Origin: Marsupella aquatica
Lineage: Eukaryota > Plantae > Marchantiophyta
NCBI GenBank assembly: GCA_973895155.1
Contig: OZ316891.1
Coordinates: 27,841,045 to 27,905,044, forward strand
Direction of reading: 5' to 3'
Length of the DNA stretch: 64,000 bases
Translations under genes and position numbers: made by a program
Notes under the pieces: generated by a model
Databases searched by the model: none
The model's input: only the letters and a program-made list of their open reading frames with translations
Told to the model about the DNA's origin: nothing
In this document: positions 3,001 to 64,000 of the stretch, piece after piece
Numbering within the stretch: the stretch's first letter is position 1
Layout: each line of letters opens with the position of its first letter

Positions 3001-3192
3001 CATTTGAATCTTCACAGACCCAATTCCCTCAATTTGACAGGAGTGATCATTTCCCATCAGAACTGAACCGTTTGAAATAGAGTAAGAACTGAAAAACTCA
3101 CGAATGTAACAAATATGAAAAGAGCAAGCACAATCAAGAATCCACACATCATCTGCTCTCCTAGATGACGTGCACAGGGCATACCCCCGGCT
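1..3192 (-). pseudogene. pol: Copia pol (PR-IN-RT-RNase H), with a frameshift near 2310-2320 and a TGG>TGA stop at 294-296
   Basis: WILDCACSFH protease, WHSRLGH..CEHC, YIHSDVWGP / SDNGGEY / PQQNGVAER integrase, LYVDDML RT, YVDSDY...STTEAEY RNase H continuing past the stop to the window edge. Confidence 0.95.
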
Positions 3193-40622: not shown

Positions 40623-41711
40623 GTTTCCCACGTACTTCGTCGAAGAGAGTAGCTAGCTTGTCCTACGGGAGAGAAGGTAGTTGTGAGATTGTGTCCGTTC
40701 TGAGCAAAGTCGTTCGTAGGCTTGGCACTCAAATCTTCAGAAGAGCTAATTTGAAGGAGCAAGAGAAGCAGCAACGCCAAAATGTGTTTGCACAGGTATT
40801 CCAGGAGTAGGGCCTCCACATACTCTTAAATGCTGCTCAATCGCCCTACTTGTCAATAGTCAATACTACCTAGATCCTGCACTCCACTTGTAAATGCCGC
40901 TCAATCACCCTAGTTGTCACCCTAGTTTTCAACAGTCAGTGTGCTATCTACGCACTTCAGCCTCCTGCTGTAGCTAGCTAGTCATATATTGTTCGTTCCT
41001 ATTTGCTTGATAGACCCCAAAATGAAACTTGTTAGTTGATAGACCCCCTGAGGTCTATCAAGGGTCCAGATCTGAGATCAAAAGATCCCTCAATGGTCCA
41101 GATTAGGGAAAAGTATGGAGGGGGGGGTTGATTAAGCAAATTTTGTCAAGAAGGTGGTCTACTAAGCATATATCTCTCTATTCCAATCATCCTAAAGGAG
41201 CCATCCATTGGGTACACCAATGAAACGGCAAGGATGAACCTGAAAACAGATGTAAGCTTTGCTTGATTGAACGGTATGTGCCAAAACTAGTCACTAGATT
41301 AGAATAAATCAACTAACACCTGCCTGGCCCTGGAAAAGATACAGAAATGAAACTGGTGAAATCACACTGAGCTAAATGAACTACCATTGGTCAAACTCTT
41401 AATATGGTAATTTATGATTGTCAATTTATTGACTAATCATAATATGCAACTGGATATGCAACCCACCAAATGTTAATTTGTTTACAAATTGAGTTGTGGG
41501 TGGGACTCAATCCTGGCCGTCACATTATGGGCCAGTAGTGCAGGGGTCTACATTTTTATACGGACTGTAAAGCTGGCTATAGTTCTTTTCTTTTCTTTTC
41601 ACATAAAATTAAAAAATATTCTTAAAACATAATTTGTTATTTTTATTAAAAGGTTTTTAGAATTTTAATAAAAATCCTAAAATGCTGGCTGCAGTAGTTT
41701 GATGATAGACT

Positions 41712-42907: not shown

Positions 42908-44932
42908 ATGGCATCCAGGTTCGGAGGTGTCAAGTTTGAGGTGGAAAAGTATGATGGGCGTACAGACTACTTGCTCTGGGAGAAGCAAGTGAAAGGAGTT
43001 CTTCGCGCTATGGGCCTAGATCATCTTCTCTCTACACAAGAGATGTACGATGATGAAGAGGAGATTCCACTAAAGAGGTGGAGGCAGGAACAAGTAATTG
43101 CAATGAATGCGGTGATGCTTTATCTAAAGCCGCATATCATCAAGAAGTTGGATGACTACGCGGATTGTGCATCTCTATTCAAAGCCCTAAGGGAGAAGTA
43201 CTATCGAGAGGATGTATCAGATCGATTGTACAAGAAGTCTCTCTTGATGAGCCTTAGGCTCAAAGAAGGGAACAAGCTCCAGGATCACTTGGATGAATTT
43301 GACAGCCTAGCTGTTGATTTGTCTAATCTTGGTAAGGGCGTTGAAGAAGAGGACAAGGCCTTGCTTTTTCTCAGCTCCTTACCCCCATCTTATCAGGGTT
43401 TGAAGCAGGTTCTCTTGTATAGAGACTTGAAGTCTATTTCATACAATGAGGTGGTAAGCTCTTTGCTGTCAGATGATGCACAGAAGAAGTTGGGTCAAGC
43501 CCAGACAGCATCGTCATCTGGTGCTGCCTTGAATGTGAATCGTGGGAGGTCACAACGGCGTCCCGAGCAGCGCACGAATGGCAAGGGATGAAGTAAATCT
43601 AGGAAAAGATTTGCTTCAAAGGGGAAGTTCCAGGAGAGAAAGCCAGTAGTCTGTTGGAAGTGTCACAAGGTTGGTCACATTAAGAGGGTTGGTAATGATA
43701 AGGCAGCTGAATCTTCATCAGCCAATGTGGCTAGTGCTGATGGAGAAGTTGATTTACTCAATGATGAGTATGTTTTATGAAGTCAGGAGTATGCCCTGTG
43801 CACATGATCTAGGAGAGCAAATGATGTGTGGATTCTTGATTGTGCTTGCTCCTTTCACATTTGTTACATTCGCGAATACTTCAATTCTTATTTTGTGTCA
43901 AACAGTTCAGTTTTGGTGGGAAATGATCACTCCTGTCGAGTTGAGGGTATTGAATCTGTAAAGATTCAAATGTTTGATGACATTGTGTGCACAGTGTCCG
44001 GAGTCAAGTTTATACCTGGCATGCGTAAGAATTTGATTTCACTCGGTGTGTTGGATACAAATGGTCATCAATGGCGAGTAATTGATGGTGAACTTCAAGT
44101 CATGTCGGGAGAGACAGTGATTTTGAAGGGGAGCAGACAAAAGAATTTGTATGTGTTGTAGGGCAATATAATATGTGGAGAGGCCAATGTAACCAAGTCT
44201 CACGAGGAAATGACTCAAATGTGACATTCACGGCTAGGCCACATGAGTGAGAAGGGTTTGGCTATCTTACGGAAGAATGGACTCATTTATAATTTGCAAT
44301 CTTGGAAATTAGAGTTCTGTGAGCACTACATTCTTGGAAAGCAGTATCGTCGTGCTTTCGGTGTTGGGACTCATCGTTCCAAAGCGGTTTTTGAGTACAT
44401 ACATAGTGATGTGTGGGGTCCATCCCCGACTCCCTCACACTCTAGAAAGTTGTACTATGTATTATTTATTGACGATTACTCAAGATTTGTGTAGATTTAT
44501 TTCATGACGCATAAGTCTAATGTCTTGTCCATTTTTACAAAGTGAAAGGCCGAAGTGAAGAATCAAACAAGAAACACTGTTAAGTGTTTGGATACAAGGG
44601 TGAAGAGTCTAAGGTCAGACAACGGCGGGGAGTACACTTCAATAGAAATTGAAGAGTACTATGCAGAACAGGAGGATAACTCGCCATCTCACCACAATTT
44701 ATACTCCGCAGCAGAATGGTGTCGCTGAGAGGCTCAATTGAACACTATTGGAGCGGTCATGGAGTATGCTGAGCCAATCAGGTTTACCAAAGGAATTTTG
44801 GGCAGAAGCTGTCAATACTACAGCTGATTTGGTAAATCTTTCTCCTTCTAGTGCAATCAATTTCAAAACGCCGTTTGAAATGCGTTATAAGCGGCAAACA
44901 GACTATCATGGCTTGGTAGTTTTTGGAAGTGA
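42908..44932 (+). pseudogene. Copia B gag-PR-IN with multiple nonsense mutations
   Basis: KYDGRTDYLLW, CWKCHKVGH, WILDCACSFH, YIHSDVWGP; stops at ~43589, 44159, 44222, 44492, 44543. Confidence 0.92.
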
Positions 44933-44949
44933 CACTAGAAGAAAACAGG

Positions 44950-45330
44950 GCCCTTTATGACCAATCACCCAATGACAGAGATGAATAAATGACCAAAAGT
45001 TTTAATGACACAAAAAGAATGACGGGGGAATGACTGTCCACAATGACCAATAGACTGAAATGACAAAATGTTAATTTTTTCGTCATTTTGTATAATGTCT
45101 ATAATGACTGATGCGACCAAAATGACCCAATTTCCCTAAATGGTCAATTTAGACACATGTCTTAAATGACACAATTAATAACAACAATGATAAATCAGTG
45201 TTTAGCAACATTATAGTCACTCTGGACAATGACTGAAATGACCAAAAATCTATTTGCATCATTTTGGACAACGGTGATAAATGACAAAAAATGTATTATC
45301 GTCATTTTAACCAACGGTGTTAAATGACAA
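44950..45330. promoter_or_regulatory. Left subterminal region dense in AATGAC/GTCATT motifs (right equivalent ~63230-63930)
   Basis: Many direct and inverted copies at both ends, as expected for TnpA-type binding sites. Confidence 0.75.
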
Positions 45331-45334
45331 AATT

Positions 45335-45830
45335 TAGGGTCAATCTGAAAATGAGAATATATCAGTGTTTACAACAACATATTGTCATTATGGACTTCTG
45401 CCATAAATGACTAACTCTAGGGTCAATCTTGAAATTAGGACATATTAGTGTTTACAAGAACATACCGTCATTATGGACTTCTCTCATAAATGACAAAATT
45501 TAGGGTCAATCTGAAAATGAGAATATATCAGTGTTTACACAACATATTGTCATTATGGACTTCTGCCATAAATGACTAACTCTAGGGTCAATCTTGAAAT
45601 TAGGACATATCAGTGTTTACAAGAACATACCGTCATTATGGACTTTTCTCATAAATGACTAACTCCACAGTCAATCTTGAAATTAGGATATATCGGTGTT
45701 TTCAACAACATACTGTCATTATGGACTTGTCGCATAAATGACTAAATATAGGGCAATCTAAAAATCAGGATATATCAATGTTTACAATAACATACAGTCA
45801 TTATGGACTTATTACATAAATGACTACTTA
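45335..45830. repeat. ~83-bp tandem array (~6 units, alternating A/B variants) in the CACTA left arm
   Basis: TAGGGTCAATC at 45335, 45418, 45501, 45583; each unit has GTCATTATGG..CATAAATGAC. Confidence 0.9.
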
Positions 45831-45909
45831 TAGAGTCATTAAAGAACCCAAGAGATATGAAGATTAAAATACTCAATAGTCATTCCAGACACCTATCATA
45901 ATTGTAGAG

Positions 45910-48900
45910 TCATACACCTTTGGAGTGATTTTCCAGAAGTGTCATCATATATGGATGCGCGCATACTATCGTATCCATGGGGCAAATGAAACCTTTTTGT
46001 CTCTCCAAGAAGTAGGGCAATACCAATGGAAGGTTGTCATGCTTTGTTGTAATTGTGTCATGTTTGTGCCGGTGTTTGGACGGGGAATATTTTAATTTGC
46101 AAATAAATGCATGCATACCATCACATCCAAAGGCAAATAAAAGTTGTTTTTTGGTTCTCCAAGAGGTAGTGCTGCCCCAATGGAATGGGCAGGGGAGTAA
46201 TGCTTCTCAGTATGGTGTGGGTGCATTCTCAGTATGGTGTGGGTGCAGGTTTAGGGAAGAGGAATATTCCAACCTTGCAAGGAATCTAAAGCTAGCTCTC
46301 TTTGGAGGTACTAGGGCCTTTATTGGGTCATATGTGAGCAATGGCCCGTCATAAATGCCAATGACTAAAAGTAGGGTCATTAAAATTGTCATATGGAGAG
46401 TCATATCAGTCTAATGACTGGATTTGTGGTCATTTGAGGGGTCCCTTATGTAGTCATTAAGGAAAAGCACAAATGACCATTTTGGGGCTAGGGGCTTGAG
46501 GTGGGCCCTAGAGTGCCATGGGCCCCACATAGAGGTGAGAACCCCTCCACTAGGTGCGGGACACTATACTCATCATTGTCCAACCACTAGTTGCGACATA
46601 AACACTTTGGGCACATGTTTTTGTGTTTCCTTAAGGCATGATGCACCTTTGGGGAAATCACTCCCAAGTCGTACGACTTTGGAGTGATTTGCCAAAAGTG
46701 CAACCATGGATGTATACCATCACATCCAAAGGCAAATAAAACCTGTTTTTTGGTTCTCCAAGAGGTAGTGCTGCACGAATGGAATGGGCAGGGGAGTCGT
46801 GCTTCTTAGCATGGTGTGGCTGTGGGATTAGGGTTTGGGAATATTCCAACCTTGCAAGGAATCTAAAGCTGGCTCTCTTTGGAGGTACTAGGGCCTTTAT
46901 TGGGTCATATGTGAGCAATGGCCCGTCATAAATGCCAATTACTACAAGAAAGGTCATTAAAATGGTCACATTGGATGTCATATAAGTGGAATGACCTGAA
47001 TTATTGTCATTTGAGGGGTCCCTCATGCAGTCATTAAGGAAAAGCACAAATGACCAGTTTGGGGCTAGGGGCTGGAGGTGCGCCCTAGAGTGCCATGGGG
47101 CCCCACATAGAGGTGAGAACCCCTCCACGAGGTGCGGGACACTATACTCATCATTGTCCAACCACTAGTTGCGACATAAACACTTTGGACACATGTTTTT
47201 GTGTTTCCTTAAGGCATGATGCACCTTTGGGGAAATCACTCCCAAGTCGTACGACTTTGGAGTGATTTTCCAAAAGTGTTGCCATGCATGCACACCATCA
47301 CATACAAAGGCAAATAAAAGTTGTTTTTGGGTTCTCCAAGAGGTAGTGCTGCCCAAATGGAATGGGCAGGGGAGTCATGCTTTTAGGGTATGGTGTGGGT
47401 GCAGATTTAGGGAAGAGGAATATTCCAACCTTGCAAGGAATCTAAAGCTGGCTCTCTTTGGAGGTACTAGGGCCTTTATTGGGTCATATGTGAGCAATGG
47501 CCCGTCATAAATGCCAATGACTAAAAGTAGGGTCATTAAAATTGTCATATGGAGAGTCATATCAGTCTAATGACTGGATTTGTGGTCATTTGAGGGGTCC
47601 CTTATGTAGTCATTAAGGAAAAGCACAAATGACCATTTTGGGGCTAGGGGCTTGAGGTGGGCCCTAGAGTGCCATGGGCCCCACATAGAGGTGAGAACCC
47701 CTCCATTGCGTGCGGGACACTATACTCATCATTGTCCAACCACTAGTTGCGACATAAACACCTTGGACACAAGTTTTTGTGTTTCCTTAAGGCATGATGC
47801 ACCTTTGGGGAAATCACTCCCAAGTCGTACGACTTTGGAGTGATTTGCCAAAAGTGTTGCCATGCATGCACACCATCACATACAAAGGCAAATAAAAGTT
47901 GTTTTTGGGTTCTCCAAGAGGTGGTGCTGCACCAATGGAATGGGCAGGGGAGTCGTGCTTCCCTGTATGGTGTGGGTGCGGGTTTAGGGAAGAGGAATAT
48001 TCCAACCTTGCAAGGAATCTAAAGCGGGCTCTCTTTGGAGGTACCAGGGCCTTTATTGGGTCATATGTGAGCAATGGACCGTCATAAATATCAATGACTA
48101 AAAGCAGGGTCATTAAAACTGTCATATGGAAAGTCATATCAGTCTAATGACTGGATTTGTGGTCATTTGAGGGGTCCCTTATGCAGTCATTAAGGAAAAG
48201 CACAAATGACCAGTTTGGGGCTAGGGGCTGGAGGTGGGCCCTAGAGTGCCATGTGACCCCACATAGAGGTGAGAACCCCTCCATTGCGTGCGGGACACTA
48301 TACTCATCATTGTCCAACCACTAGTTGCGACATAAACACCTTGGACACATGTTTTTGCGTTTACTTAAGGCATGATGCACCTTTGGGGAAATCACTCCCA
48401 AGTCGTATGACTTTGGAGTGATTTGCCAAAAGTGTCACCATGGATGCATACCACTATTCCAAACGCAAATGAAGCCCTTTTTTGTCTCTCCAAGAGGTAG
48501 CGCAACACCAATGGAATGGGTGTGGTAGTGGTGCTTCCCTCTATGATGTGTCTGATGTTTAAAGGTATACGATTATTCCATTTTTGCAAGGAATGTAGAG
48601 CGGGCTCTCTCTGGCGGTGCTAGGACCTTCTTTGGGTCATTTTTTAACAGAGTCATGTCATAAGTGTCAATGACCACAAGTAGGGTCATTGAATTGGTCA
48701 TATGGGATGTCATATAATTCAAATGACTGGACTTGTTGTCATTTGAGGGGTCTCTAGTGCAGTCATTGAAGACAAGCATGAATGACCAATTTGGAGCTAA
48801 GGGCTGGAGGTGGGCCCTAGAGTGCCATGTGGCACCACATAGAGCTCGCAACCCCTCCACTAGGTGTCAAATACTATAATTACTATTCTCCAACCACTAG

Positions 48901-50500
48901 TTGCACCATTAGCAGTTTGGAGCCATGTTTTTGTGTTTACTTAAGGGATGATATAATCTTGGGGAAATCACTCCCAAGTCGTACGACTTTGGAGTGATTT
49001 GCCAAAAGTGTCACCATTGATGCATACCATCCTATCTAAAGGAAATGAAGCCATTTTTTTGGTCTCTGCAAGAAGTAGTGCAAGGCTGTTGTCGTTCCAT
49101 GTAATTGTGTCATGTTTGTGCCGGTGTTTGGATGGGGAATATTCTATTTTGCAAATGAATAGTGATGGGGCACTCAAGAAGGTAGTGTAATCTTCATTGA
49201 GTCATTTCTGAAAAAATTGGTGTCATAAATACCAATGACTACAAGTAGGGTCATTAAATCTGTCATATGGGCTGTCACATAAGTCAAATGACTGGATTTG
49301 TGGTCATTTGAGGGGTCCCTTGTGCAATCATTAAGCAGAAGCACAAATGACCAGTTTGGGGCTAGGGGCTGGAGGTGGGCCCTAGAGTGCCATGGGGCCC
49401 CACATAGAGGTGAGAACCCCCTCCACTAGGTGCGGGACACTATACTCATCATCGTCCAACCACTAGTTGTGCCATGAACACTTTGGACACATGTTTTTGC
49501 ATTTACTTAAGGCATGATGCACCTTGGGGAAATCACTCCCAAGTCATACAACTTTGGAGTGATTTGCCAAAAGTGTCACCATGGATGCATACCACCGTAT
49601 CCAAGCGCAAATGGAGCCATTTTTTGTCTCTCCAAGAAGTAGCGCAACACCAATGGAAGGTTGTCATCTTGTGATGTAATTGTGTCATGTTTGTGCCGGT
49701 GTTTGGATGGGGAATACTCCATTTTGCATATGAATAGACTTAAGGCATTGTGAGTAGGTGTTGTAATCTTCATTGGGTCATTTTGGAGGAATAGTGTGTC
49801 ATTAATGCCAAAGACTGCAGTGAGGGTCATTTTGGCAGTCCTTTTGGAAGTCATTTGTGCCAAATGACTCCATATGGGGTCATTATAGAGGTCCCTCATG
49901 GTGTCATTACGTACCATCAGAAATGACCCTTTTGGGTCTAGGAGCTTAAGGTGGCCCTAGTGTGCCATGGGGCTCTACATGAAGGTGGCAACCTCTCCAC
50001 AAGGTGCGGGGTACTATACCCACCGTACTATTCTCCAACCACTAGTTGCACCATGAGCACTTTGGAGCCATGTTTTTGCAATTACTTAAGGGATGATGCA
50101 ACCTTGGGGAAATCACTCCCAAGTCATACAACTTTGGAGTGATTTGCCAAAAGTGTCACCATGCATGCATACCATCCTAAGGCATGCATACAAAAATTGT
50201 TTTTGTCTCTCCAAGAGGTATATAGTGCAATACTAGTGGAAGACTATGTCCTTCTATATAACTATGTCATGTTTGTGCCAATATTTGGATTTTGGATATA
50301 TTCTATTAAATTCCAAAGGAATTGTAAAGGGGCACTCCGAGAGGTAGTATACTCTTCATTGGGTCATTTTCACATAATGTGTGTCATTAATGTCAATGAC
50401 TACAATAAGGGTCATTTTGGTAGTCAGTTAGAGGTCATTTGGAGCAATTGACTGCATATGTGGTCATTAGAGAGGTCCCTCATGGTGTGTCATTAATGGA
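45910..50500. repeat. ~578-bp tandem array (~8 units) in the CACTA left arm
   Basis: Marker palindrome AAATCACTCCCAAGTC.TA..ACTTTGGAGTGATTT at 46655, 47233, 47811, 48389, 48965, 49530, 50110. Confidence 0.93.
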
Positions 50501-51074
50501 AACACCTCAAATTAGGGTAATCTTGGTTGTCATACTAGAGGTCAGAAGTACCAAATGACTGGAAATGTGGTCTTTACAAAGGCTATTGGGGGGTTCTCTT
50601 TGGAGGTACAAGGGAGTTCATTGGGTCATTTGTGAATTAAATGGTGCTTCAATCTGAGGACTAAACGTGGGGTCACTCACGCTGTCATATTGGAAGCCAT
50701 TAATGTTGGCATATTGGAGGTCATATAGTCATGGGAAGGCTCACTTATTAATGCTTTGGTGTAATGCTCTCAAAAACTCTTACACAACATAGCCTCATAT
50801 GTAGTGGTCATGTAGCATGTAAGGGACCCTATAATTGTGCTTGAGTCATGAATGAGGGTTTCTCTCAATTGAGTCAGGAGTGGAGAGCTATTAAATGCTA
50901 ATATTTGGATGAGTATCACTATCATATGGTGAGACAATAAGGTAGTCCAAAATGGTGTTCATGCATGCGGGTTATGGGTTTATATCGCGGGCATATATCG
51001 GACCTTTTATATCGCTAGCATCATTTTTTATATATAACATTGGTCCTTAACATTCTTGTTGGCACCTACACAAA

Positions 51075-51275
51075 CAGCCATGACCTTATGGGGGGGGTCG
51101 TGACATTATGAGTTATTAACCTTGCCTTCCCTACTTAGGGCCTTATGGGGGCGTCCGGACCTTGTTATTAACCTCTATAGTTGGTATTTCCCTAGGGCCT
51201 TATGGGGGGGGGGGTTTACATTGTTATTAACCTAGTCTCAACTTCCCTAGGGCCTTATGGGGGGTCCAGACATGT
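51075..51275. repeat. ~58-bp tandem repeat (CCTTATG(G)n..TTATTAACCT), ~4 copies
   Basis: Directly visible. Confidence 0.75.
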
Positions 51276-51837
51276 GAGAGATATTGTCAGAATATAACCC
51301 TAATTAATGACCCACAATATCCACCATCCCCATCCAACAGAATACCTTACCTTTACGGGCTTTAGGGGTCTAGCATTAGGTTTTTCCCGCTAAGTGTTCT
51401 TGCGTACCAACAGGAGCCCTTTTTCCTGAAAAAACATCGAGAGGGCAACGCTCGATGTGCTCATTTCTTGGCATGCCTTTGTGTGCACATTGCAAGGGCT
51501 TAGGGTTGCGCAGCGTTGTGCTCCATTCCACCAAGCTTCGACACCCTTCGAAGCGTTGGGCGAGGCATTGTTCGGGCAAGCATTGGGTGAGGCATTGTTT
51601 GAGTGAAGCGTTGGACGTGGCATTGTTTTAGTGACCATTTGCAAGGTTTAGAGGAGGAGCTCCGACCCGAAGCCATTCAGGCTACAATTGTTTTTGAGCT
51701 TGTTGCGCGCGGTCGGCGGAGCACCTCGGTAGGACTTGGGAGCTTCTTTGGAGGACCCTGCGCTTTGGAGGACATTCGGGCTTTGGAGTGCCCGATTGCA
51801 GGGTCAAGGCAATAGCTTCTTTACATTTGTCATTGTT

Positions 51838-52070
51838 GCGGGTGAGGAGCGGAGGATGAGCTGCAATCGGCGATAAGCTGCGGGTGAGGAGCGGAGGATG
51901 AGCTGCAATCGGCGATAAGCTGCGGGCGAGGAGCGGAGGACGACCTACAATCGGCGATAAGCTGCGGGTGAGGAGCGGAGGACGAGCTGCAAATCAGCGA
52001 CGAGTTGCAATCAGCAGCAAGCTACAATCGGCAAGAAGCTGTGGGTGAGGAGTTGCAATCGGCGAGAACC
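51838..52070 (+). repeat. GC-rich 42-bp tandem repeat, probably in the first non-coding exon of the CACTA transcript
   Basis: GCGGGTGAGGAGCGGAGGAYGAGCTGCAATCGGCGATAAGCT at 51838, 51880 and later copies; candidate donor AAG|GTCAGT near 52143. Confidence 0.8.
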
Positions 52071-54353
52071 TACAGGAGGTTCCATCAAGGAGCTGCGAGA
52101 ACTTATATCTGTGGGAGCGAGTTTGGGCTGAGGTGCGAGAAGGTCAGTTGTGCAATTTTGCGCTTCTTCCCCTTCTGGCCATTTGTTCATTCTGCATTTT
52201 TGCTTTGCTTTTGCCAATGTGCTACCAATGTGCTGTCAGTCCATGAATCCAATGTTGCCTTCTTGTTCTGTTGCTTAGTGTCTGCTAGTATGCTTATGGC
52301 AATGACAGAGAAGCTCCGATTGCTAAGAGACTATTTGCTCTCTCTTTCTCGCTCTCTCTCTGTCCCTCTCTCTCTAAGTGCCTGAGTTTTGCACCAGTTT
52401 TTGAATGTCTACAATGTTGAGTTCCCTTTGCAGAGAAATGTGAATGCAGTTTTCGAATGTCTAGAATGTTGAGTTCCCTGACGTGATGCGATGGAGCATC
52501 CTGGACGCGCACTGATTGTAGCAGTTGTGCGTGTCGTCGGCACTGTCATGGATTGGAGAAGGAAATCCCATAGAACTAGCCATTGCACTTTCTCGCACAA
52601 TGCCTGCATTTCCTTCCCTGTACCATGCTAGCTCCACTGCGACCTTCCACTGCTATCTATGTTGATTCCTTCCACTGCTACAAAATTCTGCTTTGCAATG
52701 GCATCCCAATGCTCATATGTCCCAGTAAAATTCGGGTAGACATAAGTATTAGGCGCGGACTCTTCTCTCTCTGCCTGCCCAAGATCAGGGTTTACTGGTT
52801 CTAATTGCTAATTCAGTCCCCATTTAGAAAGACCTAAGAAATTTAACTATCTTCGAGCTTTATTGTTTGTTTTGGCAAAATCTTCCTTTGCGGCCAGCAG
52901 CTGAGGCCCAGCGTCCACGATGTCCGATACATTTTTCAAGACATAAGTAAGCTGGCTGGGAAATGCCTTTCTCCTCAATCTCAAGAGATGATTTTTCTGG
53001 AGTCTGCTCACGTATTGCTCTTGCTTGTCCAGAACCTGAACAGCTATTTACCACAACTGAATCAAGTGCCCGAGTTCTGACCAAGTTGTCCTTTGTCTGT
53101 CTGCTGTTGATTTCTGATTGCTACTTGTTGGATTTGTCTGCTATGTTCAATTCAGTTTGTTGTCTTGTTGTCGTCTGACAATGTTTGTGGTGCAAGGTGA
53201 GCTTGATCTCTTATTATTACAATGTAGTCCTTAGTTTTCCATTGTATGATGTTTTCCTTAGTCTGTCTATGTTCCTCAATGAATTGGTTTCCTTACTCTT
53301 CTTTTGACATCCCTCTGTATCATAGCCCTTTTCTTTTCTCTTTTTTTTACTGAAGAGAAGTGCAAGCATGTATGGTGAATCCTCACTTGATTCCAGCAGC
53401 GACTCTGTAGAATTTTGTCGCCAAAAAGTTTCAGAGTTTCGTGTGTGGTTTGCCAACTGCTGTGCCACCTCAGAGAATTCCTTAGTGGCTTTTGTACAAG
53501 CCTTGCTCTTCAACTATGGTAATTTACAGCTAACTGTCTGATGTTCACACAACATCCATACACAGCAATGAATACAACTCCATGAATACAGCCACATGAT
53601 TTCCTTTGGTCTGCAAACTGGACAAAACTAAACTAAAATCAGCTTGGTCAATTTTAAATCCTTCGTAAGGGTCTCTGACAGCAGCCCGGTATAGTCATTT
53701 GTGCACGAAGATAGAGTACGGTGCAGCTTTTGAAAAAGTGGGTGGACCAGCAGCTTGTTGAGAGTAAAGCAACTTATGGTTCTGTAACAGATGTGTGCAG
53801 CAGCTTAAGATGTAGAAGGCACACAATAAAACTTGATTTTTACAGATTTAAAAAAGGGCAGGGTGAGTGAGCACTGCATGTTGAACTCACAGGTCCGAAT
53901 CTTGATTTGATTTCGCTGCTAAAATTCGTATCTCTTGCCTGAGTCCCAGTTTGCTGGAGTTTTGTTGCTCTCTGTGCTTTGTTGTGCACATTGTTGTGTT
54001 TGCTCTGTCCATTTTAAAACTTGAGAGCCAAATGAATGCTTTGCTGAAACTCAATTGCTATTTTTTCTGTGTTGCCCTTACAGATTTTAAAAAGGCAGGG
54101 TGAGTGAGCACTGCTGTACAGCAAGCAAAGGCATACAGGTTGCAATATTTGTGATTGCTTCCAATCATCTAGGCCAAGGTTATTTGCGCTGCTCAGTCCT
54201 AAATGCTTTGCCATCTATAAAGCATTGGTTTATGTTGCACCCTTGTGGTTACATGTCATATTTTATGCTGCACCCTCATTCTTTTGTGTCATACTGCACC
54301 CTGTTATTCCTTCTTGTTTCACAATCTGATGTAGGGTCTGAGTGTGCAGGACC

Positions 54354-55013
54354 ATGGCTCGCAATAAGCAGAAGGCCATGAATCGTTGCAGAGGTGAATC
54401 CTCTCAAGCACCTCAATTGTCCTTATATTCAGACATTGAGATTAACCAGAATAGTCCACATGTATGTGCGATTTGTGATGAGGGAGGGGATCTCATTGTT
54501 TGTGATGGGCCTTGCCACCGACATTTCCATAAGAATGTTTCCTGTCCTTTGGGTCAGCAATGGCTATGCCCAACTATATCCCTCGCTGATGGCCATGTTG
54601 GAGAATGGCTTTGTGTTGATTGCAAGAATGAGGAACATTCTTGCTTTAAGTGCCATGTGTCTGGAAAAATTGGTGAAGAGGTAAGAAAATGTCCAGACTC
54701 TCTCTGTGCCCGGTTTTACTGTCGGCAGTGTTTGGTTCCTGGCACAGCATCATGTGGACTCCATATTTGTCTTACTTGTGGACAGGGGCCCAATGATGGG
54801 GCTAATGGCTTTTTGGTTCAGTGCATGAGGTGTCCTAAGGCATGGCACAAAGACTGCCTGCTGTTTATCCAGCAGAGGGGATTTGCCCATGATCGAACAA
54901 TTTGGGATCACTCAGCGCATGGGCAGCCCAAGAAGGGGATGTTTTACTGTCCTGACCATGACATTGACCCTACACTAGGCACTCCTGCTAGGAGCCACAT
55001 ATCTTGGATTTGA
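54354..55013 (+). CDS. CACTA-borne stand-alone EDM2-like PHD-finger cluster protein (219 aa) with H3-tail-like N-terminus
   Basis: ACCATGG context just after a TGCAG acceptor; CAICDEGGDLIVCDGPCHRHFH..C..WLCVDCKNEEHSCFKC..C..C..CGLHICLTC..QCMRCPKAWHKDCL..YCPDHDIDPTLGTPARSHI follows the EDM2 PHD layout as I recall it. Confidence 0.85.
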   Translation: MARNKQKAMNRCRGESSQAPQLSLYSDIEINQNSPHVCAICDEGGDLIVCDGPCHRHFHKNVSCPLGQQWLCPTISLADGHVGEWLCVDCKNEEHSCFKCHVSGKIGEEVRKCPDSLCARFYCRQCLVPGTASCGLHICLTCGQGPNDGANGFLVQCMRCPKAWHKDCLLFIQQRGFAHDRTIWDHSAHGQPKKGMFYCPDHDIDPTLGTPARSHISWI

Positions 55014-55610
55014 TTGAGGCTGGATCGAACACAAACTTGAGATAGAGCTTTTTGATGGTTTCACGTGGACTTAAACAATTTTCAGAGTGCTAAAACATGT
55101 GGACTATTTATATGCAGTTTGATGAACTCCTCATGTATACACACTCTACGACAGTGCATTGCGGATTGAGGCAATTAATTTTGAGAAATCAACTTTATTA
55201 TCTTTTCCAGGGTAGGATTCTGATTTTCAAGCATGTACTTTGAGTGTGACTTTCCTCCATATTGATGTCTAAACTTCACTTGTAAATTTGTCACTGGTGT
55301 CACAAACGTTACTTATTCCAGACCTGTCTGCTCACATTCCTAATAGGCAAACAAATACTGGAAATGATGAAGGCACAGAGATTTACGTTCATAGTATCAT
55401 TCTGATGACACTGTATGTGATGCTCTATTTGTATGCAAGGAGAAGGTGCCCTACTACAGTGGATTTGAGAAACTGGGCTCTGTGGGTTTGAGCAATTGGA
55501 CTGTGGTTGGCATCGGTTGTACAACTGTGACGGTAGGCCCAATTTTGTATGCATGTCACTCTGATTCAGTTTGAAAATCATAGTTTGAATACAATTTCAA
55601 TCAAGCTAGC

Positions 55611-58600
55611 ATGGCACAATTGCCACAGAATACGTTAGGTGTGGGTAGAACTCCAAAGTTGCCGCTCTTCCATCCAGCTAGAGTACAACATCGTGATGAT
55701 GCTTTGTGGGTTCGAGAACAGAAGGCCTGCCACAAGAGTGGGGACCATAAGATGTACTGCCCTTGTGTGAACTGCAAAGGGAATTATAGGACTAATCGGA
55801 ATACTGCTAGACTGCACCTTATTAAACATGGTCGGTACCCTGCATGTCGAGTGTGGGTGGGAGAGGGACAGGACTCTTCTGATGAAGAGTGGGGTGCTGA
55901 CTACATGTCACAACATGGCCCTGAGGCATTGAGGGTAGCAAACCTTCAGCAGGCAACCTGTGCACAACAGCCAACTGTAGATGTTGAAGAACATTTATTT
56001 GTAGATGTTCCAGAGTATCCAACTGTGGATGTTCCAGAGTATCCAACTGTGGATGTTCAAGAACATCCAACTATAGATGTCGAAGAACATATCAGGGCTC
56101 TACTGGAAGAAACGTTGCTGAGAACCAGTGAAGAATCCCCTGAGCATGAGCTAGATGATCAGGACCGTTTTGACTTGGATTTTGTACTTGGGGATGATGA
56201 GAGTGAAGGAGGTGCCCATCCTGTAAACCCCCTTGAAACCTCCAAAACTCCTGTGGAGACTGATCCTGCACAGTTATCTTTAGATGCAGCAATGCAACCT
56301 TTGTTCCCAGGCAGCAAAATAGATGTTGTGTCATTCATGTTGCTTCTGCTGAACATCTGTCATGGCCATGGATTCTCAAACAAAGGAGTGAATGCATTGT
56401 TGTCTTTGATGGGGGAGCATGGTATGCCTACAGAGCATAATCTGCCCAAGAACTTATATGCTGCAAAGCAGCTATTGAGAAAGCTTGGCTTGGATTATGA
56501 GAGAATCCCTGTCTGTGAGAAAGGTTGTATGCTCTTTAGGGGTGAGAATGCCAAGTTAGAAAACTGTTCAGTGTGTCAGCAGCCCAAGATGAAGAGAGTG
56601 GGGAATTCATTACAGGCAAGGAAGGTAGTGCGGTATTTCCCTATAATTCCCAGGTTGAAGAGATTGTATGCCACTGCTGGTACATCTAAACTCATGACTT
56701 GGCATCATGAGAATAGAAGCACAGACAACATGGTTCGGCACGCAGCAGATTCAAAGGCTTGGAAGCATGTGGATACAAATATTGATCGGGAATTTGCAGC
56801 TGAACCAAGGAATGTGCGATTTGGGTTGGCACTTGATGGGGTGAATCCCTTTGGGAATAATTCCACAGCTTGGTCTACCTGGCCAATACTGTTGTTGAAT
56901 TACAATTTACCTCCTTGGCTTACCACCAAGAAGTTCTTTGTCATGCTAGCTATGCTGATTCCAGGACCTGATTCAGTAACAGAGGAACAGCTAGACATAA
57001 TATTGGGCCCATTCTATGAGGAGTTGGAGCTGTTGTGGAAGAAAGGAGTGCCCTGCTTTGACAAATTGCCACGCCCAGGATTGTCTCAACACTTCAACCT
57101 TAGGGCTGTGCTATTGTGGACAATCAATGATTACCCTGCATATGGTTTAATATCTGGACAACAACACTCTGGATACAAAGGATGTGTCATCTGTGGGCCA
57201 GAATGTGTGGCACGTGGTTCTAAGCACTTGCAGAAATTAGAGTACAGTGGCCACCGTCGATGGTTAGCAACAAGGCATCTTTTTCGTAGACCAGATAGTG
57301 CACAATACTTTGATGGTGCAATTGAGAGTCGACCTGCACCGTGTAGAATGACAAGCTCTGATAGAAAGAAGTGGGGAGACGAGACAACAGAATATTTGAA
57401 GAAGGGAGGAACCAAGGTTGAGGATGAGAAATGCCCCATAAAGGTGCATGGAGTGAAGAGGGCTACTGGTCTGTACAAGTTGCCCTATTGGAATGTAAGA
57501 CTCCATACTACTACAATGAATTTCTGCAATCTCTTCATATGACTTTGAAATATATTCTCTTCATATACTTCCTGTAGCCCAGATTTTGTAATTGTTGTAT
57601 TCAATGCACTAATTTCTGAATTGTGTCCACTGCACAAACTACTGCCCAGTGATGCCAAAAGTTGTATTCAATGCCCTAATTTCTGAATTGTGTGTCCACT
57701 GCAGAAACTACTCATTAACCATTGTCTAGATCCCATGCACTGTGAGAAGAATCTTGCACACAACATTGTGCACACTATCATTGGGACCAAGGACACTCCT
57801 TCTGTGAGAGAAGACATGAAGCTCTTACAGGTGCGCCAACACCTATGGCTTGTACCCAATCCAGCTCCCAAGCGTAAGGATGACAAATTGTTGATGCCCC
57901 CAGCCCCATATTGCCTGAGCAAGAAGGAAAGAACAAGGTTCTTGGAGGTTTTATTGACCTTGAAAGGGCCCACTGGTTTTTCAAGTTCTTTGGCAAAGTG
58001 TGTTACAAAATCCAAGAAACTCTCTGGGTTGAAATCACATGATTTCCACCAACTCATGCAACAGATTCTCCCTCTGGCAACAATGGGATTACTTGATGAA
58101 GGGGTTCGCTTGGCCATAGCTGGGGTGAGCAATATCTATCGCCAGATCTGTACGAAGGTGTGGGACCCTTCAATGTATGAGAATTTGATGATGGATGTTG
58201 CATTCACTCTCTGCATTTTGGAAATCCATTTTCCACCAAGCTTCTTTGATGTCATGACCCATTTAATGATTCACCTAGTGGAGGAATTAGACTTGTGTGG
58301 CCCAGTTACAGGCAGATGGATGTACCCAATAGAGAGGAACCTGAAGGTATTGAAGGGTTATGTACGAAACAAGGCACGTCCAGAGGCTTCTATGGCTGAA
58401 GGCTATGTATTAGATGAGTCTTTGGGATTTCTTTCTGAATACATGATTGATGCAAAGGGAGAGGGAAAACGAACCTGGGAGTTGGAGGAGGATGCTGGCG
58501 TTGCAGGCATTGTTTTGGAAGGGGCTGCAAAGGCGATAACTTTGGATTGGTCTGAAATGATGGCCATGCATCATTATATATTAGAGAATGAAGAGACAGT

Positions 58601-59604
58601 GGCTCCATGGTATAGGTACATAAACCCTAGAAACTCTCCTATCCTTAGGCATATGGATCATAATTATGTTTCCCCATTGTGTTTGTATATTCATGGTGGA
58701 TCGTGCACTAATGTCTTCAGTGTTGTTGTTGCCATGCAGGATATATGATGCTACCAATGAGACTGTTACCAAACGAAGAGTGGATTTCCGGAAGGAGTGG
58801 ATGAGGAAGCCTGCCAATCGAAGAAAACCAGTGGAATTTCCCGTAGACTGCCAAGAATTGCCACCTTTCAGGGAATGGTTTCAAACATTAGTCAATACCC
58901 ATAATTTTGAGAAAGAGTCTGAGCGGTCATTACTATCTGCATACTCCACACCACCTAGTTTGAAGGCACGACTGTATAGGGCATGTAGAGCCTATGGGCA
59001 CCATTGGAGGACTATTCCATCCTTGGGGTGTTTGAGTGATTGTGATTCTGGTGCTTTCAGCACTTTTGATTCTGGGATGGCTTCTACATTCACTGAGAAG
59101 CGAGTGGACAGGTCTGGTGCAACCATAGAAGAATCTGTACAGTATGTAGGGGCCTTGACAGATATCTTGGTACTGAATTATGGCAGCTTGAGGAAAGAGG
59201 TGATTCTTTTCAAAGGGAAATGGGCAGATCCATCATGGACTCCTAAATCCTCTGCCAGTATGAGGTATACCAAGTCTGGTCTTTGGCAGGTGAATTTCCA
59301 TAGAGAACTGGGTGTGTCCAAGAAAATGGATTACGTTTTCCCAAAGCAAGTGGAGCAGGTTTTCTTCCACCCCAATGAGAAGGGGATAGCATGGAGAACA
59401 ATCCTCCACAAAGAATCCAGGTCCACAAGGGTGTTAGGTGATTACACAGACGTTGATTTCCATGCTACAATGGAAAACAATGTCAAATTACACATCGAAT
59501 TGGCTAAGGCCTGTAGGTCCAGAGAAAATCCAGGACCAAGTACTGGTCCCAAACGAGGCAGAGATGCAGAGGGATCTGCAAGAAAGGGCAGGCCTAAGCA
59601 GTGA
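55611..59604 (+). CDS. CACTA transposase (TnpD/TNP2-like), exons 55611-57494, 57705-58615, 58740-59604; 1219 aa, intact
   Basis: CPCVNC..HL N-terminal domain, LALDGVNPF, WTINDYPAYG, DPMHCEKN, GLKSHDFH, PPSFFDVMTHL, RWMYPIER, YVFPKQVEQVFF; 3660 nt in frame. Confidence 0.95.
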
Positions 59605-59702
59605 ATAGGTTTTAGCTAGGTGTGTGAAGTCCATAGATGGACTACATGTATGGACTATTTATGAAATCAGACTAATGGTTTATCCATTTGTGCAGTTGGT
59701 GA

Positions 59703-62700
59703 ATGCAGCCTGTGAAAGGAAGATTGCAAGGGTTGTCACATTCTGTGAATCCTTATGAGGAGGCCCGAAATCGGAACATAGAGCATAATGTCAGAATTAT
59801 GCGTGATCTAGGACTGGGGCCAGACTGCAAGCTGATGTGTGTGTTGATATGTCTATTGCAAATTTGATTCAGTAGATGGAGTTGTCAGGTTCATGTTCTG
59901 TTTTCATATTCCAGATTGGTCTCATACTAGTATGGATCCTGTACATAAGTACTAGTGTTATGGTGTTGTAGATTCATTTTGCATGTATGTTTGATCTGCA
60001 TTGGTGTATGTTGATGATTGCTTTGTTCCTTAGAGGCCCAACCACACATGTACAACGAGAGAGAGGAAAGCCTGCTTTGGTGAAAGGTACTTCAACTGAA
60101 ACATTGCCAAAGAGGAGGAGCTCTAGACTATCAGAAGTTACCAAGGTGAACATGGCAGAGTTTGGTGATGATGGCTATGGTTCTCCTTCTGAGTATGACA
60201 CTGAGGATTCTGACATTGGAGGGTCAGAACCAGAGAGTGCACAACAGGTAATGCTTGAACTTCATCATCCTAATAGGAAGGGATCCTTGTCCCTTTTTCA
60301 AATTATATGTTGATATGCTTACGTTGTCCATGATGTAGGTACAGAAACAAAATCGTGGTCCTAAGAAGACTGGGCCTGGTGGAGGTGGGCTAGTGAGATG
60401 TTGGAAAGACCCAGACACTGGACTCTTATATGAAAGTGAGTGGATTGTACTGTTCTACTTTTCAGGTGTGTTTGGAAGTTGATATTCTACTTGGAAATGA
60501 AATTAATTGAAGTGCTTTGGTGTTGTGTGTTTGTTTAGTGGTTCCATCAGCATCTGAAGGCAGATCAGGTCAATCTGATGTACTACATTCCAGAGGATCT
60601 TCAGGTAATACACAATCTGCTCGTGTTGCATATGCAAGTACATTTGCTCAACTTTTCAATCATGTACATATTTTTTGATTGAATGCATGTGTGTGCATTG
60701 CAGGAGGGGCCTCTGAGATGCGCAGGGAACGAAGGCATGCTAAGAAGCAGTTTGATAATACTGCCAAACAACGAAGGGATTGCGGAGAGGTGCCCAAACA
60801 CATTAAAGTGAGTATTGTACTTGTTTGTAGATTTAGACAAATCTGATCCTCTCTGTTGTTGTGTGTATAAAACCTGGACTCTGCATAAATTCCAGAGTTA
60901 TGATCTGACATTGTCTATGAAATGCAGATTTATGACAATGATATTGATGATTCTGATGGCAACAAACAATACTGGCTGGAGGAACTTCGTGGCAACGTAC
61001 TCAGAGTCTTTGATGTATCAAAGCCAAAATGGACTGATCATCCACAAGTTCATACAACCACAGTGTGGAATAACATGGCAGCTGAGTGGGAGTATGTGGG
61101 TGGGGAATTTATTAACACCAAATTCCAGAGTCATTGTCGTGGCATATTGAAGAGAGAGCGCCATAAAATGCATGTTTATTGGAAGAAAGTTTGCAATGAG
61201 GATCCAACCAAACTTGGGCCATCTGGTGTTGATCCAAAGAAATGGGCAGCTTTGGTATCTCATTTTACCAGTCCAGCATTGATATCTTTGAGTAAACAGA
61301 TGACTGATAAAAGAGCACGAGTGCAAGATACCTCTCACTTTGGAAGGGGAGGGCATGCTGCAGCAGCAAAGAGAATGGTAAATTGTCTATCATTTTCACT
61401 ATCAATTCTGTCTTGTTTGTGAATCTTGATGAAAACAAACTCTGTGATTTCTCATTCATTGTGTGTTTGAACAGAAGCAGAAGAGAGGATCAAGCCCAGG
61501 TATATCTGACCTGAAAGAAAACCATGGTAGTCAGGGTTCATTGCCAAAGGTGACAATGAGCCCATCATTGGCAAGTGCAGAAGGTCAGACTGGTAGTTTT
61601 GTGGGAGCAAAGGTGAGCCCATCATTGGCAAGTGGGGAGGGTAAAAGTGCTAGCTTACTGGGGCAAGGAAACAGACATGGATCAGCTGTGAGTATTGTCA
61701 TACCAATTTGATTTGTACATCATTCTCCATTTGACAGAGCCAGTGTTGTGTCGTTTGTAAGTTTGACAGTGAGACTGTTGTGTTGGTTTGTGGTTCATTT
61801 ACAGACCCCACATTCAAAAGAAGAGATCACTGCCATTGGGGCTGTGAAATTGGATGTCGCTGAGTTGAAAGGCACTGTGAGGGAGTTGACAAACATGATG
61901 ACTACGTGGATGGCACATCACCCCAGTAATGCACAAGTTCCAACAGTTGTGCCTAGTCACAGTAAGTTGACTACAACTACCAAACAAGGTAGTAGAAAGC
62001 GATCTCTTACTTTTTCAGGCGATAATGAAGGTAAAATTCTCTATCATGTATACACTGTCCATTCAATGTAATTATTGTGATGTGTATATGTCATTGCATG
62101 TTTATAATGTTCTTGCATGTTTTTAGTGTGATTATATGTTGCTGGTGTATACATGTTTGTTTATGCATTTCTTTTGTGTGTGTTTTATGACAGCATCTTT
62201 AGGGGAGCCTCCTGTGTCGCAGGGAAGACCAACTGACACAGCTAACAGTACTCTAAAGCAAACTGAATTGGAAGTGAACCTTTTGCCATCTAAGTTGCCC
62301 AAAGAAGCCATTTCAGATGTCTTTCAGTTGCCAGAGGATAAGTCGACTCAGTTGACACCAGATGTAACCCCAGAATCATCTGAGTTGCCAAAAGAAACTC
62401 CCATTCCAAGTGAACAGGATGACACTCCATCAACTAGAAAGGGAAAGAAGAAAAGGAAGAAAGGATCCTCAGCAAATGCATCACCTGCACAGAAGAAACC
62501 AATGCAGTCTCCTAACCCCGTTGCAAAGGTAAATGTGTGTTTGATTTGAGTGTTCTTCTATCTTTCAATTTCTGTTTATTGCATTTTTAACAAAATGTGT
62601 TGTTCACAGTTTGCAAGAGGAGATTTGGTGAAGATGAAGAGCGTTGTGGACAATTCCATGATAGTGGCAGAAGGTGAGGTGACAGGGCTGCCAGGAGAAG

Positions 62701-62870
62701 ATAAGTTTCATTGTGCAGATTTTGAAAGCCCTTTCTTGCGAGTGCGTGTGATTGAAGTGTTTGTAGATGTGGCATTGCCATTTGCCAATTCAGGGGAGAA
62801 CCAGTCTAAATTATCTGATGTGAAAGGGATGAATGCCCTATGGAACTCTAGATTGCTTAAGAAGCAATAG
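59703..62870 (+). CDS. CACTA ORF2 (TnpA-like), ~10 exons; some exon boundaries uncertain
   Basis: Exons flanked by AG/GT sites; PSGVDPKKWAALVSHF..SKQMTDKR..SHFGRGGHA (Ptta/En-Spm ORF2-like) and C-terminal IVAEGEV..RVRVIEV..LPF..LW (Tnp1-like). Confidence 0.78.
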
Positions 62871-64000
62871 AAATAGCACTCTATCAAGAAACAATAGACA
62901 TGATAGAATGACAACTCTGTTTTTCTATAAACATGCAGAGTGATTGGTATGTCAGGTTGTAACAATTGACAATCTAATATTATTGATGTCAATGTAATTT
63001 TGTTTCATAAATTTGCATTGAGTTCAATATTTACCGTGAGACTTATGAAGGTATCTTGTATGAATATCAATTGGATTTGTGATATATATCGAATGTTTCT
63101 TTAAGTTTTCATTTAGCAACTCTATTGAATGGCTTTGTAATATATGATTTTTGATTGACATCAAGTTTTATCTATCATGATCACTTAAATTTGAATTTCT
63201 CCAAATCATTGAATACTTCGTCTGAATGATTGGCTTGAATGACTAAATGACTAGCTAGAATGACTGATGTAATGGTCATTATTCACAACTATCTTTGTGA
63301 CCAATATGACTCAACTCTGGTCATTAAAGACATAGACTAAATGATTCAAAGAATGACATATACAATGACCTTTCTCATGGTCATTATAAACAAGTCCACT
63401 ATGACTCACTTTATGTCATTCAAGACATGTCATTAATGACTAATGTGTATCTTTACGTGTCTTCTCCCAATTGAACCACGTGTCTCAATATGACTTGTTT
63501 ATACTGTAGTCATTTTGGACACGTCCAAAATGACCCAAATATATTGCCAAATGGTGAATCCTCTTTGAACCACGTGTCACTATTTGATTTGTTATATAAT
63601 GTACGTCATTTTGGACTGTCCAAAATGACCAATGTTATTAGTTTTTTTATTGCCACGTGTCGTTGTGTGATTGGGTACGGGGACCATCGACGGTCAACGG
63701 CAATTGACCGTCGATGGTGATTTGTGTCGTCATTTTGGACCGTTCAACATTTATGACCATATCATAAAAACGGTCATTTAGGATAGTATGAAATGACCAC
63801 ATGTTTTTAGCGTCATTTGTCCAAAAGGACCGTGACCAAAATGTCCGTTGTGACGTGTCTGGAAAGACGAGAACAATTGCGTCATTGTTTTGTTAAAAAG
63901 ACCTGATTAATAGTCATTGTTTTGGTCATAAAATACATTGTTTTCTACTAGTGTGATGCATATGCTCACACAACAAAGCAGAATAGGATCAAGTTGGATC

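What the first reader, a model, noticed from the sequence alone, without database searches (positions are those of the whole stretch)
59703..60160. ORF2 begins with a CDCA7/WDR76-like helix (YEEARNRNIEHNVRIMRDLGL) followed by RRSSRL
Seen: a short exon missed by the ORF track (ATG 59703, just after a TGCAG acceptor) encodes MQPVKGRLQGLSHSVNPYEEARNRNIEHNVRIMRDLGL. The next exon encodes RRSSRLSEVTKVNMAE. From my knowledge, YExxRxxNIxxNxxxLxxLGL followed by RRSxRL occurs at the N-termini of CDCA7, WDR76/Cmr1 and some B3 proteins, and in CDCA7 an N-terminal helix binds the remodeller HELLS (plant DDM1). Inference: TnpA may recruit or sequester DDM1, a second chromatin interface in the same element. 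Maize Spm TnpA is known to drive demethylation of its own element.
Basis: partly seen in the sequence, partly recalled or inferred. Interest (0 to 1): 0.72.

Follow-up and report, generated by a model that had tools for sequence, protein, structure and literature searches.

The report
Plant transposon carries chromatin-adaptor cassette
An intact plant jumping gene encodes, at the predicted start of its helper protein, a short helix of the kind host proteins use to dock the silencing remodeler DDM1 and a motif identical to a known nucleosome anchor, so it may steer the host's own chromatin machinery onto itself, but no binding was tested.

Summary
The sequence is real. It lies in an intact 19-kb CACTA element whose transposase is closest to a liverwort one. 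The helix starts a predicted 10-exon, 699-aa TnpA-like ORF2. RRSSRL lies about 54 residues after the helix tyrosine, in exon 2. No RNA was available and the exon-1 donor is weak.

The same helix opens ORF2-side exons in 3 of 80 related loci, from two other transposase clades. A profile of these four transposon helices retrieved host CDCA7-family, B3 and EF-hand/UIM proteins. The window keeps 3 of the 4 published CDCA7alpha DDM1-contact positions in this helix (E, R, N; E41 is His). It is closest to B3 helices, and CDCA7-only profiles do not detect it significantly. RRSSRL equals the tardigrade Dsup acidic-patch anchor.

Best reading: a CDCA7-like adaptor (DDM1 dock, nucleosome anchor, TnpA DNA reader) acting locally at the element's ends (0.4). 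The scan noted this cassette earlier in protist and fungal host proteins, not in a transposon.

The parts
44933..63953 (+). Intact CACTA (En/Spm) element, 19,021 bp; 14-bp terminal inverted repeats CACTAG(A/T)AGAAAAC with one mismatch; 3-bp target duplication TGA (44930-32 and 63954-56); inserted in a Copia-type element
   Evidence: both flanks map to adjacent positions of the Copia copy at window 1994-2270 with a 3-bp overlap
44933..46000 (.). Left subterminal repeats rich in AATGAC/GTCATT, likely TnpA binding sites (inferred)
   Evidence: 28 per kb against 0.6-0.8 per kb in the flank and coding region
63001..63953 (.). Right subterminal repeats with the same hexamer
   Evidence: 22 per kb
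54354..55013 (+). ORF with NSD-like PHD fingers upstream of the transposase
   Evidence: PF23004 and PF22908 above cutoff; PF00628 and PF23011 below cutoff
55611..59604 (+). TnpD transposase, 3 exons, open 1219 aa
   Evidence: Transposase_21 and DUF4218 above cutoff, DUF4216 below; open frame; closest named relative Calypogeia fissa, 54%
59667..59695 (+). Branch-point-like TCAGACTAAT and TGCAG acceptor in front of ORF2 exon 1
   Evidence: the same decamer lies just upstream of the acceptor in the contig of organism D (table 7)
59703..59836 (+). Predicted first coding exon of ORF2; 3' end uncertain (in-frame donor candidates 59819-59858)
59754..59816 (+). Helix YEEARNRNIEHNVRIMRDLGL of the CDCA7/B3/EF-hand-UIM N-terminal class; predicted DDM1 dock
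   Evidence: residue spacing compared with PMC12711577
60113..60130 (+). RRSSRL in ORF2 exon 2 (60034-60247), identical to the Dsup HMGN-like acidic-patch motif; followed by an acidic tract
60928..61377 (+). ORF2 exon 6, likely TnpA-type DNA-binding domain
   Evidence: ESM Atlas first hit 0.96; rank-8 cluster 0.92 with PF03004 on 32% of members; tblastn E 3e-4 to L008, which has a sub-cutoff PF03004 hit; no Pfam hit of its own; AF2 pLDDT 48
62610..62870 (+). Last ORF2 exon, beta-rich domain shared with locus L030
   Evidence: tblastn E 7e-7; AF2 pLDDT 36, uninformative

Best explanation
The predicted TnpA-like helper protein of this CACTA element likely works as a transposon-encoded CDCA7-type adaptor: its N-terminal helix would dock the host remodeler DDM1, RRSSRL would grip the nucleosome acidic patch, and its DNA-binding domain would aim both at the element's own subterminal repeats. 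Shown: both motifs, their order, their membership of a motif class shared with host chromatin proteins, and the intact element. Inferred: the splice joining them to ORF2, binding of the DNA domain to the AATGAC repeats, DDM1 and nucleosome binding, and the outcome. The outcome I favour is local remodeling that exposes the ends to host demethylases and to TnpD.
For: (1) A profile of four transposon helices alone found 56 proteins at E<=1e-3 among 1.84 billion. Eight of the 56 have a Pfam family: 1 zf-4CXXC_R1 (CDCA7), 3 B3, 3 EF-hand/UIM, 1 HA. (2) The window keeps all nine near-invariant positions of 55 anchored hits (Y, E, R, I, N, L/M, L, G, L/I). The published DDM1-contact residues of CDCA7alpha E32/R35/E41/N42 have the spacing of window E19/R22/H28/N29. 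(3) 116 of 119 CDCA7-family proteins chosen by their zinc finger have RRSxR after the helix (10/50/90th percentiles 52/55/56 aa). The window spacing is 54 in the model and 48-61 over all 8 donors. (4) RRSSRL is the Dsup segment solved on the acidic patch. (5) Softened CDCA7 profiles (2 of 6 settings tried) rank the four transposon helices 1, 2, 3 and 5 among 36,647 six-frame segments. A mixed host profile ranks them 1-4, with the window at E 7e-4. (6) The helix recurs in L066, L079 and L059, and one clade for the four transposases is rejected (p-AU 5e-7). (7) Organism D keeps the branch-like decamer and an in-frame YEE after a one-codon gap (my hand translation of a 30-base loose end). (8) Arabidopsis TnpA acts locally at termini and needs ROS1/DML2/DML3.
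Against: Default CDCA7-only profiles score the window helix at 1-2 bits, and softened ones give E 3-1300, never significant. Without B3 rows the host profile drops it to rank 28. A profile of the other three transposon helices gives E 19. The B3 match (E 2e-7) is partly circular, and no DDM1 link for these B3 proteins turned up (listing only). The window has His at the E41 position and V30/I32 where hits have charged or polar residues. Organism D has Gln at the conserved Arg. R35A/N42L did not break CDCA7alpha-DDM1 binding, so the shared residues are not proven determinants. Organism C differs by 5 amino-acid changes in residues 1-38 with little silent change; all avoid key positions, but the chance of that is about 0.24 (hand calculation), so there is no proof of selection. 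L066, L079 and L059 lack RRSxR within 1.5 kb. L008 and L030 have ORF2 exons but no helix above the null. DDM1 recruitment by CDCA7 normally promotes silencing. The exon-1 donor is weak.
Confidence: 0.4

Rival explanations
1. The cassette is a real chromatin module, but the working part is the nucleosome anchor, and this divergent B3-type helix binds another partner (another SNF2 remodeler or a cofactor) rather than DDM1.
For: The helix is closest to B3 proteins (rank 1, E 2e-7) and is missed by CDCA7-only profiles. The class is spread over several unrelated host families. RRSSRL is an exact match to a solved motif.
Against: The only experimentally mapped partner of this helix class in the papers read is HELLS/DDM1. 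B3 helices keep the same E/R/E/N spacing as CDCA7alpha.
Confidence: 0.27
2. Decoy: the helix binds DDM1 to block it, occupying the surface used by CDCA7 and H2A.W, so that CG maintenance or H2A.W loading fails at the element (locally) or genome-wide.
For: CDCA7alpha binds within DDM1's H2A.W-binding module and may compete with H2A.W. Transposons are activated in ddm1.
Against: Arabidopsis TnpA-Spm1 hypomethylation is confined to termini and abolished in the ros1 dml2 dml3 mutant; it was not checked whether that TnpA carries the helix. Helix plus nucleosome anchor plus DNA reader is the layout of a recruiter.
Confidence: 0.13
3. Passenger: a captured piece of a host B3-like gene that is not spliced into ORF2 or has no function.
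For: Weak donor, poor start context, no RNA. Amino-acid changes outnumber silent ones against organism C. The L066 first exon resembles host EF-hand/UIM proteins over about 57-75 aa, as a capture would. CACTA gene capture is well known (recalled).
Against: The exon sits exactly where ORF2 needs a start. The acceptor and branch-like site are kept in organism D. Helix-to-RRS spacing after splicing matches host proteins. A helix occupies the ORF2 side in three transposase clades.
Confidence: 0.13
4. The helix is a self-association or TnpD-binding coiled segment of the transpososome.
For: TnpA is modelled as a homodimer and as a partner of TnpD (PMC13547354). The window helix is strongly amphipathic (moment 1.01 against a median of 0.58).
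Against: The motif is shared with host proteins that have no transposase partner. CDCA7alpha/beta are not predicted to self-bind.
Confidence: 0.07

Closest known systems
CDCA7 / CDCA7alpha,beta (HELLS/DDM1 adaptor; PMC11343034, PMC12711577, PMC12718391)
   Same: N-terminal helix with E-R-x-N spacing of the DDM1 contacts; in the CDCA7-family proteins fetched here, RRSxRL about 55 aa later; a DNA-reading domain further on.
   Different: No zf-4CXXC_R1. His replaces the E41-equivalent. CDCA7-only profiles do not detect the window helix significantly. It is encoded by a transposon.
B3-domain proteins of the At5g58280 type (P0170, P0165, P0160)
   Same: Closest helix (54-60% identity over 20-24 aa) and RRSxR-like motif 55-57 aa after the Tyr.
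   Different: No B3 domain. Their partner is unknown in the papers listed. No similarity was seen outside the two motifs.
En/Spm TnpA of maize and Arabidopsis (bioRxiv 10.64898/2026.08.24.746577; PMC13547354)
   Same: Second gene head-to-tail after TnpD in a CACTA element, likely helical DNA-binding exon, C-terminal beta-rich domain, dense subterminal repeats.
   Different: Host is liverwort-like, whereas both papers call TnpA-like proteins flowering-plant-only. A term search of each finds no mention of CDCA7. The known route is ROS1/DML-dependent demethylation.
HMGN / tardigrade Dsup / yeast Dot5 acidic-patch motif (PMC12487698, PMC13347269)
   Same: RRSSRL is identical to the Dsup core; PKRRSSRLS is one residue from the HMGN consensus RRSARLS over its first seven positions.
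   Different: Six residues in a disordered linker of a transposon protein; binding was not tested here.

Membership tests
CACTA (En/Spm) element | CACTA-starting terminal inverted repeats and a 3-bp target duplication | tested here: met
CACTA (En/Spm) element | Transposase_21/DUF4218 transposase and subterminal repeats | tested here: met
TnpA-like accessory protein | Tandem tri-helical HTH DNA-binding domain (Transposase_24-like) | tested here: inconclusive
   No Pfam hit; Atlas lead with PF03004 on 32% of one cluster; all-helical AF2 model at pLDDT 48
TnpA-like accessory protein | Binds subterminal repeats and drives terminal hypomethylation | not testable with these tools
   needs ChIP/EMSA and methylomes
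CDCA7 family | zf-4CXXC_R1 zinc finger | tested here: not met
   No PF10497 hit in the six ORF2 exon frames scanned; short exons 3-5 were not scanned, but are too short for the 99-position domain
HELLS/DDM1-binding helix (HLBH) class | Conserved Y-E-xx-R-xxx-I-x-E-N-xxx-L/M-xx-L-G pattern | tested here: met
   9 of 9 near-invariant positions; 3 of 4 published contact positions, E41 is His
HELLS/DDM1-binding helix (HLBH) class | Significant match to a profile of CDCA7 helices | tested here: not met
   1.9 bits by default, E 3-1300 when softened, 1.2 bits with the algal row added. Only one angiosperm subfamily was available, and Arabidopsis CDCA7alpha/beta themselves were not fetched
HELLS/DDM1-binding helix (HLBH) class | Binds the N-terminal CC2 of DDM1/HELLS | not tested
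   No DDM1 sequence found; complex prediction unavailable
HMGN-like nucleosome-binding motif | RRSxRL core | tested here: met
HMGN-like nucleosome-binding motif | Acidic-patch-dependent nucleosome binding | not testable with these tools
   needs EMSA with wild-type and acidic-patch-mutant nucleosomes
WDR76/Cmr1 N-terminal motif | Same helix in WD40 proteins | tested here: inconclusive
   0 of 56 hits carry WD40; the resemblance is recalled only

The most novel reading that the evidence does not exclude
Plant CACTA transposons have repeatedly captured the DDM1-docking helix from different host adaptor genes (B3-type here, EF-hand/UIM-type in an angiosperm-like clade) and fused it to TnpA. They thereby encode their own CDCA7 mimics that redirect the master silencing remodeler to their ends, in this family together with an HMGN-type nucleosome anchor and a neighbouring PHD reader.
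Probability: 0.3. Interest if true: 0.85.

Novelty: new variant of a known kind. Interest (0 to 1): 0.62.

Why it matters
How TnpA of En/Spm reverses or evades silencing has been an open question for decades. The newest work shows it needs host demethylases but names no docking surface in the sections read. A 21-residue helix and a 6-residue anchor give defined, mutable candidates for direct contact with DDM1 and nucleosomes. The search also suggests that the DDM1-docking helix is a plug-in shared by several plant host families (B3, EF-hand/UIM), and that TnpA-like genes exist outside flowering plants.

Tried and rejected
No genome is held for the window. No RNA holder was listed; the laid contigs behave as DNA with no splice joints, and run X8 gave no cover.

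A word-based search with the DNA-binding exon found 0 of 95 candidates. PDB sequence searches with the helix and with profile A2 found nothing. Pfam has no model for the helix. The ESM Atlas gave only unnamed clusters under 0.9 for it. AF2 models of the DNA-binding and last exons were too poor for fold searches (pLDDT 48 and 36).

Attempts to obtain a DDM1 sequence by short motif scans gave nothing, phage-type SNF2 proteins, or one plant protein that I read as ETL1/SMARCAD1-like from recall. A histone H2A scan found nothing. Complex prediction (a helix homodimer was attempted) was not available, so there is no verdict either way.

In one search, L027 (44.5) and L078 (43.0) scored just above the single-shuffle null maximum (42) but lack the conserved Glu and Arg and were dropped.

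Rejected: an in-frame fusion of TnpD into the helix exon through the 59695 acceptor (in-frame TGA before the ATG); the helix inside TnpD homologs (0 of 120); filing ORF2 as a CDCA7.

Full report
Setting. The finding lies in a complete CACTA element at 44933-63953. It has matching 14-bp ends and a TGA duplication, and both flanks map to adjacent positions of a Copia-type copy elsewhere in the window. It carries a PHD-finger ORF, an open 1219-aa TnpD and ORF2. AATGAC repeats are 22-28 per kb at the ends against under 1 per kb in coding DNA. The closest named transposase is from the liverwort Calypogeia fissa (54%; starred 4-row clade), so the host is probably a liverwort (inference). Nine runs from six coded organisms hold part of the stretch.

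Observation. The peptide, the ATG at 59703 and the acceptor at 59694-95 are as described, and a TGA precedes the ATG in frame. RRSSRL starts 27 codons into the next exon. A 10-exon model is open for 699 aa. Only the first donor is weak; 8 in-frame candidates put RRSSRL 48-61 residues after Y18, and 54 in the model. No RNA run was listed and no splice joints were seen. One contig of organism D keeps the branch-like decamer and continues in frame as G-P-L-S-Y-E-E-Q-Q-N (my hand translation of the loose end). That supports a coding exon but has Gln at the conserved Arg. Organism C differs at five residues among 1-38, none at key positions; this is compatible with chance (about 0.24, by hand) and does not show selection.

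Other elements. Of 80 transposase loci from metagenomes (only 20 are 9 kb or longer, so most cannot show ORF2), three carry the helix on the strand opposite TnpD: L066, L079 and L059. L066 was found by a window-derived pattern and then used in the scoring pair. L079 and L059 scored 87.5 and 53.5 against a single-shuffle maximum of 42. In L066 the helix opens an exon followed by further long ORF2-like frames. None of the three has RRSxR within 1.5 kb, and L008 and L030 have ORF2 exons without a detectable helix. On a 26-row transposase tree the four helix-bearing rows fall in three clades, and one clade is rejected. Rows without the label are often unknown rather than negative, so gain and loss cannot be told apart.

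Host relatives. A 33-position profile of the four transposon helices found 56 proteins at E<=1e-3 among 1.84 billion; the top two are the ORFs of query rows L059 and L079. Eight of 56 have a Pfam family: one zf-4CXXC_R1, three B3, three EF-hand/UIM and one HA; 48 have none, and none has WD40 or Transposase_24. The window matches all near-invariant columns but deviates at H28, V30 and I32. PMC12711577 (section 9, passages and a supplement term search; one supplement of scanned pages unread) names CDCA7alpha E32, R35, E41 and N42 as predicted DDM1 contacts and shows direct binding of the N-termini. The spacing equals window E19, R22, H28, N29. The same paper reports that R35A/N42L did not abolish binding, that a second contact pair (E61, I62) exists, and that the site overlaps DDM1's H2A.W module. 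PMC11343034 (passages; a text search of its supplement did not return the alignment sequences) and PMC12718391 (passages; supplement unreadable) define the helix. These unseen alignments could sharpen the residue mapping.

Reciprocal test. I fetched 119 CDCA7-family proteins by their zinc finger; they are one angiosperm subfamily, not the Arabidopsis alpha/beta class. 116 of 119 have RRSxR after the helix, median 55 residues. Their default profile detects L079 (E 8e-8) but not the window (1.9 bits). With six softer weightings the window ranked 5, 5, 8, 15, 139 and 1997 of 36,647 segments, never significant; at the two softest, the four transposon helices took ranks 1, 2, 3 and 5. A B3 profile ranks the window first (E 2e-7), an EF-hand/UIM profile ranks it 106, a mixed host profile third (E 7e-4), the same without B3 28th, and the other three transposon helices alone 14th. 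The B3 and mixed profiles are partly circular, because those rows were found with a profile containing the window. So the window helix is a divergent, B3-like member of the class, while L066 and L079 are closest to the EF-hand/UIM family. That hints at separate captures.

Second motif. RRSSRL is the core of the tardigrade Dsup segment PPRRSSRLT solved on the nucleosome acidic patch and resembles the HMGN consensus (PMC12487698 and PMC13347269, passages). Its chance occurrence in the exon is 6e-4. Earlier scan notes on protist proteins led me to check this.

Mechanism. Helix, anchor and DNA reader in that order is the layout of the CDCA7-family proteins fetched here, with the zinc finger replaced by a likely TnpA domain. 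In Arabidopsis, TnpA-Spm1 binds clustered terminal motifs, demethylates only the ends and needs ROS1/DML2/DML3 (bioRxiv 10.64898/2026.08.24.746577: abstract, sections 4, 6, 31 and passages). I therefore favour local recruitment of DDM1 to open the ends (0.40) over another partner (0.27), a decoy (0.13), a passenger (0.13) or self-association (0.07). Every binding step is inferred.

Novelty. 'transposon-encoded' with 'CDCA7' gave 0 papers. 'HLBH' gave 25 papers, 15 listed, of which only the CDCA7 papers were relevant by title. CDCA7 occurs 0 times in the two 2026 TnpA papers (PMC13547354 passages only). Listings showed no such link. The library lacks most subscription journals. Also seen as passages only: PMC12885070, 10.1101/650028 (WDR76 co-purifies with HELLS) and one abstract passage of PMC11417364. 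The motif in WDR76/Cmr1, the labels 'angiosperm-like' and 'moss-like' for the loci, and CACTA gene capture are recalled or inferred, not from a call.

Verdict. Observation confirmed; interpretation partly supported; a new variant of a known kind; interest 0.62.

Noticed in passing
window 54354-55013: Single-exon ORF with three to four NSD-like PHD fingers directly upstream of TnpD inside the element; no match in the 80 related loci.
   Followed up: partly
window 59703-62870; L008:856-1671, L030:932-2956: TnpA-like ORF2 in a liverwort-like element, and in loci of the non-angiosperm-like transposase clade, although two 2026 papers call TnpA-like proteins flowering-plant-only.
   Followed up: partly
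L066, L079, L059, L008, L030: In these elements ORF2-like exons lie on the opposite strand upstream of TnpD (head-to-head), unlike the tandem layout of the window.
   Followed up: no
L066:6955-7239 (-): The first ORF2 exon resembles the N-terminus of a host EF-hand/UIM family over 57-75 aa (about 41-43% identity), mostly through the helix; possible exon capture.
   Followed up: partly
window 46000-50600: About 4.5 kb of long internal tandem-like repeats (roughly 580-bp period read from CACTAGTTG spacing), rich in the subterminal hexamer (10.6 per kb).
   Followed up: no
window 294-4236 (-) and 42908-44932 / 63954-64000 (+): Two Copia-type copies about 94% alike in the parts compared; the second has stops and frame breaks and is interrupted by the CACTA element.
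   Followed up: partly
window 39996-40652 (-): ORF with a RING-CH-like cysteine/histidine pattern (recalled), outside the element.
   Followed up: no
L083:556-2895: A plant-type SNF2 coding sequence (ETL1/SMARCAD1-like by recall) filed as a viral contig in IMG/VR; probable contamination.
   Followed up: no
P0169, P0149: CDCA7-family proteins with the helix-RRSxRL cassette repeated two or three times in tandem.
   Followed up: no
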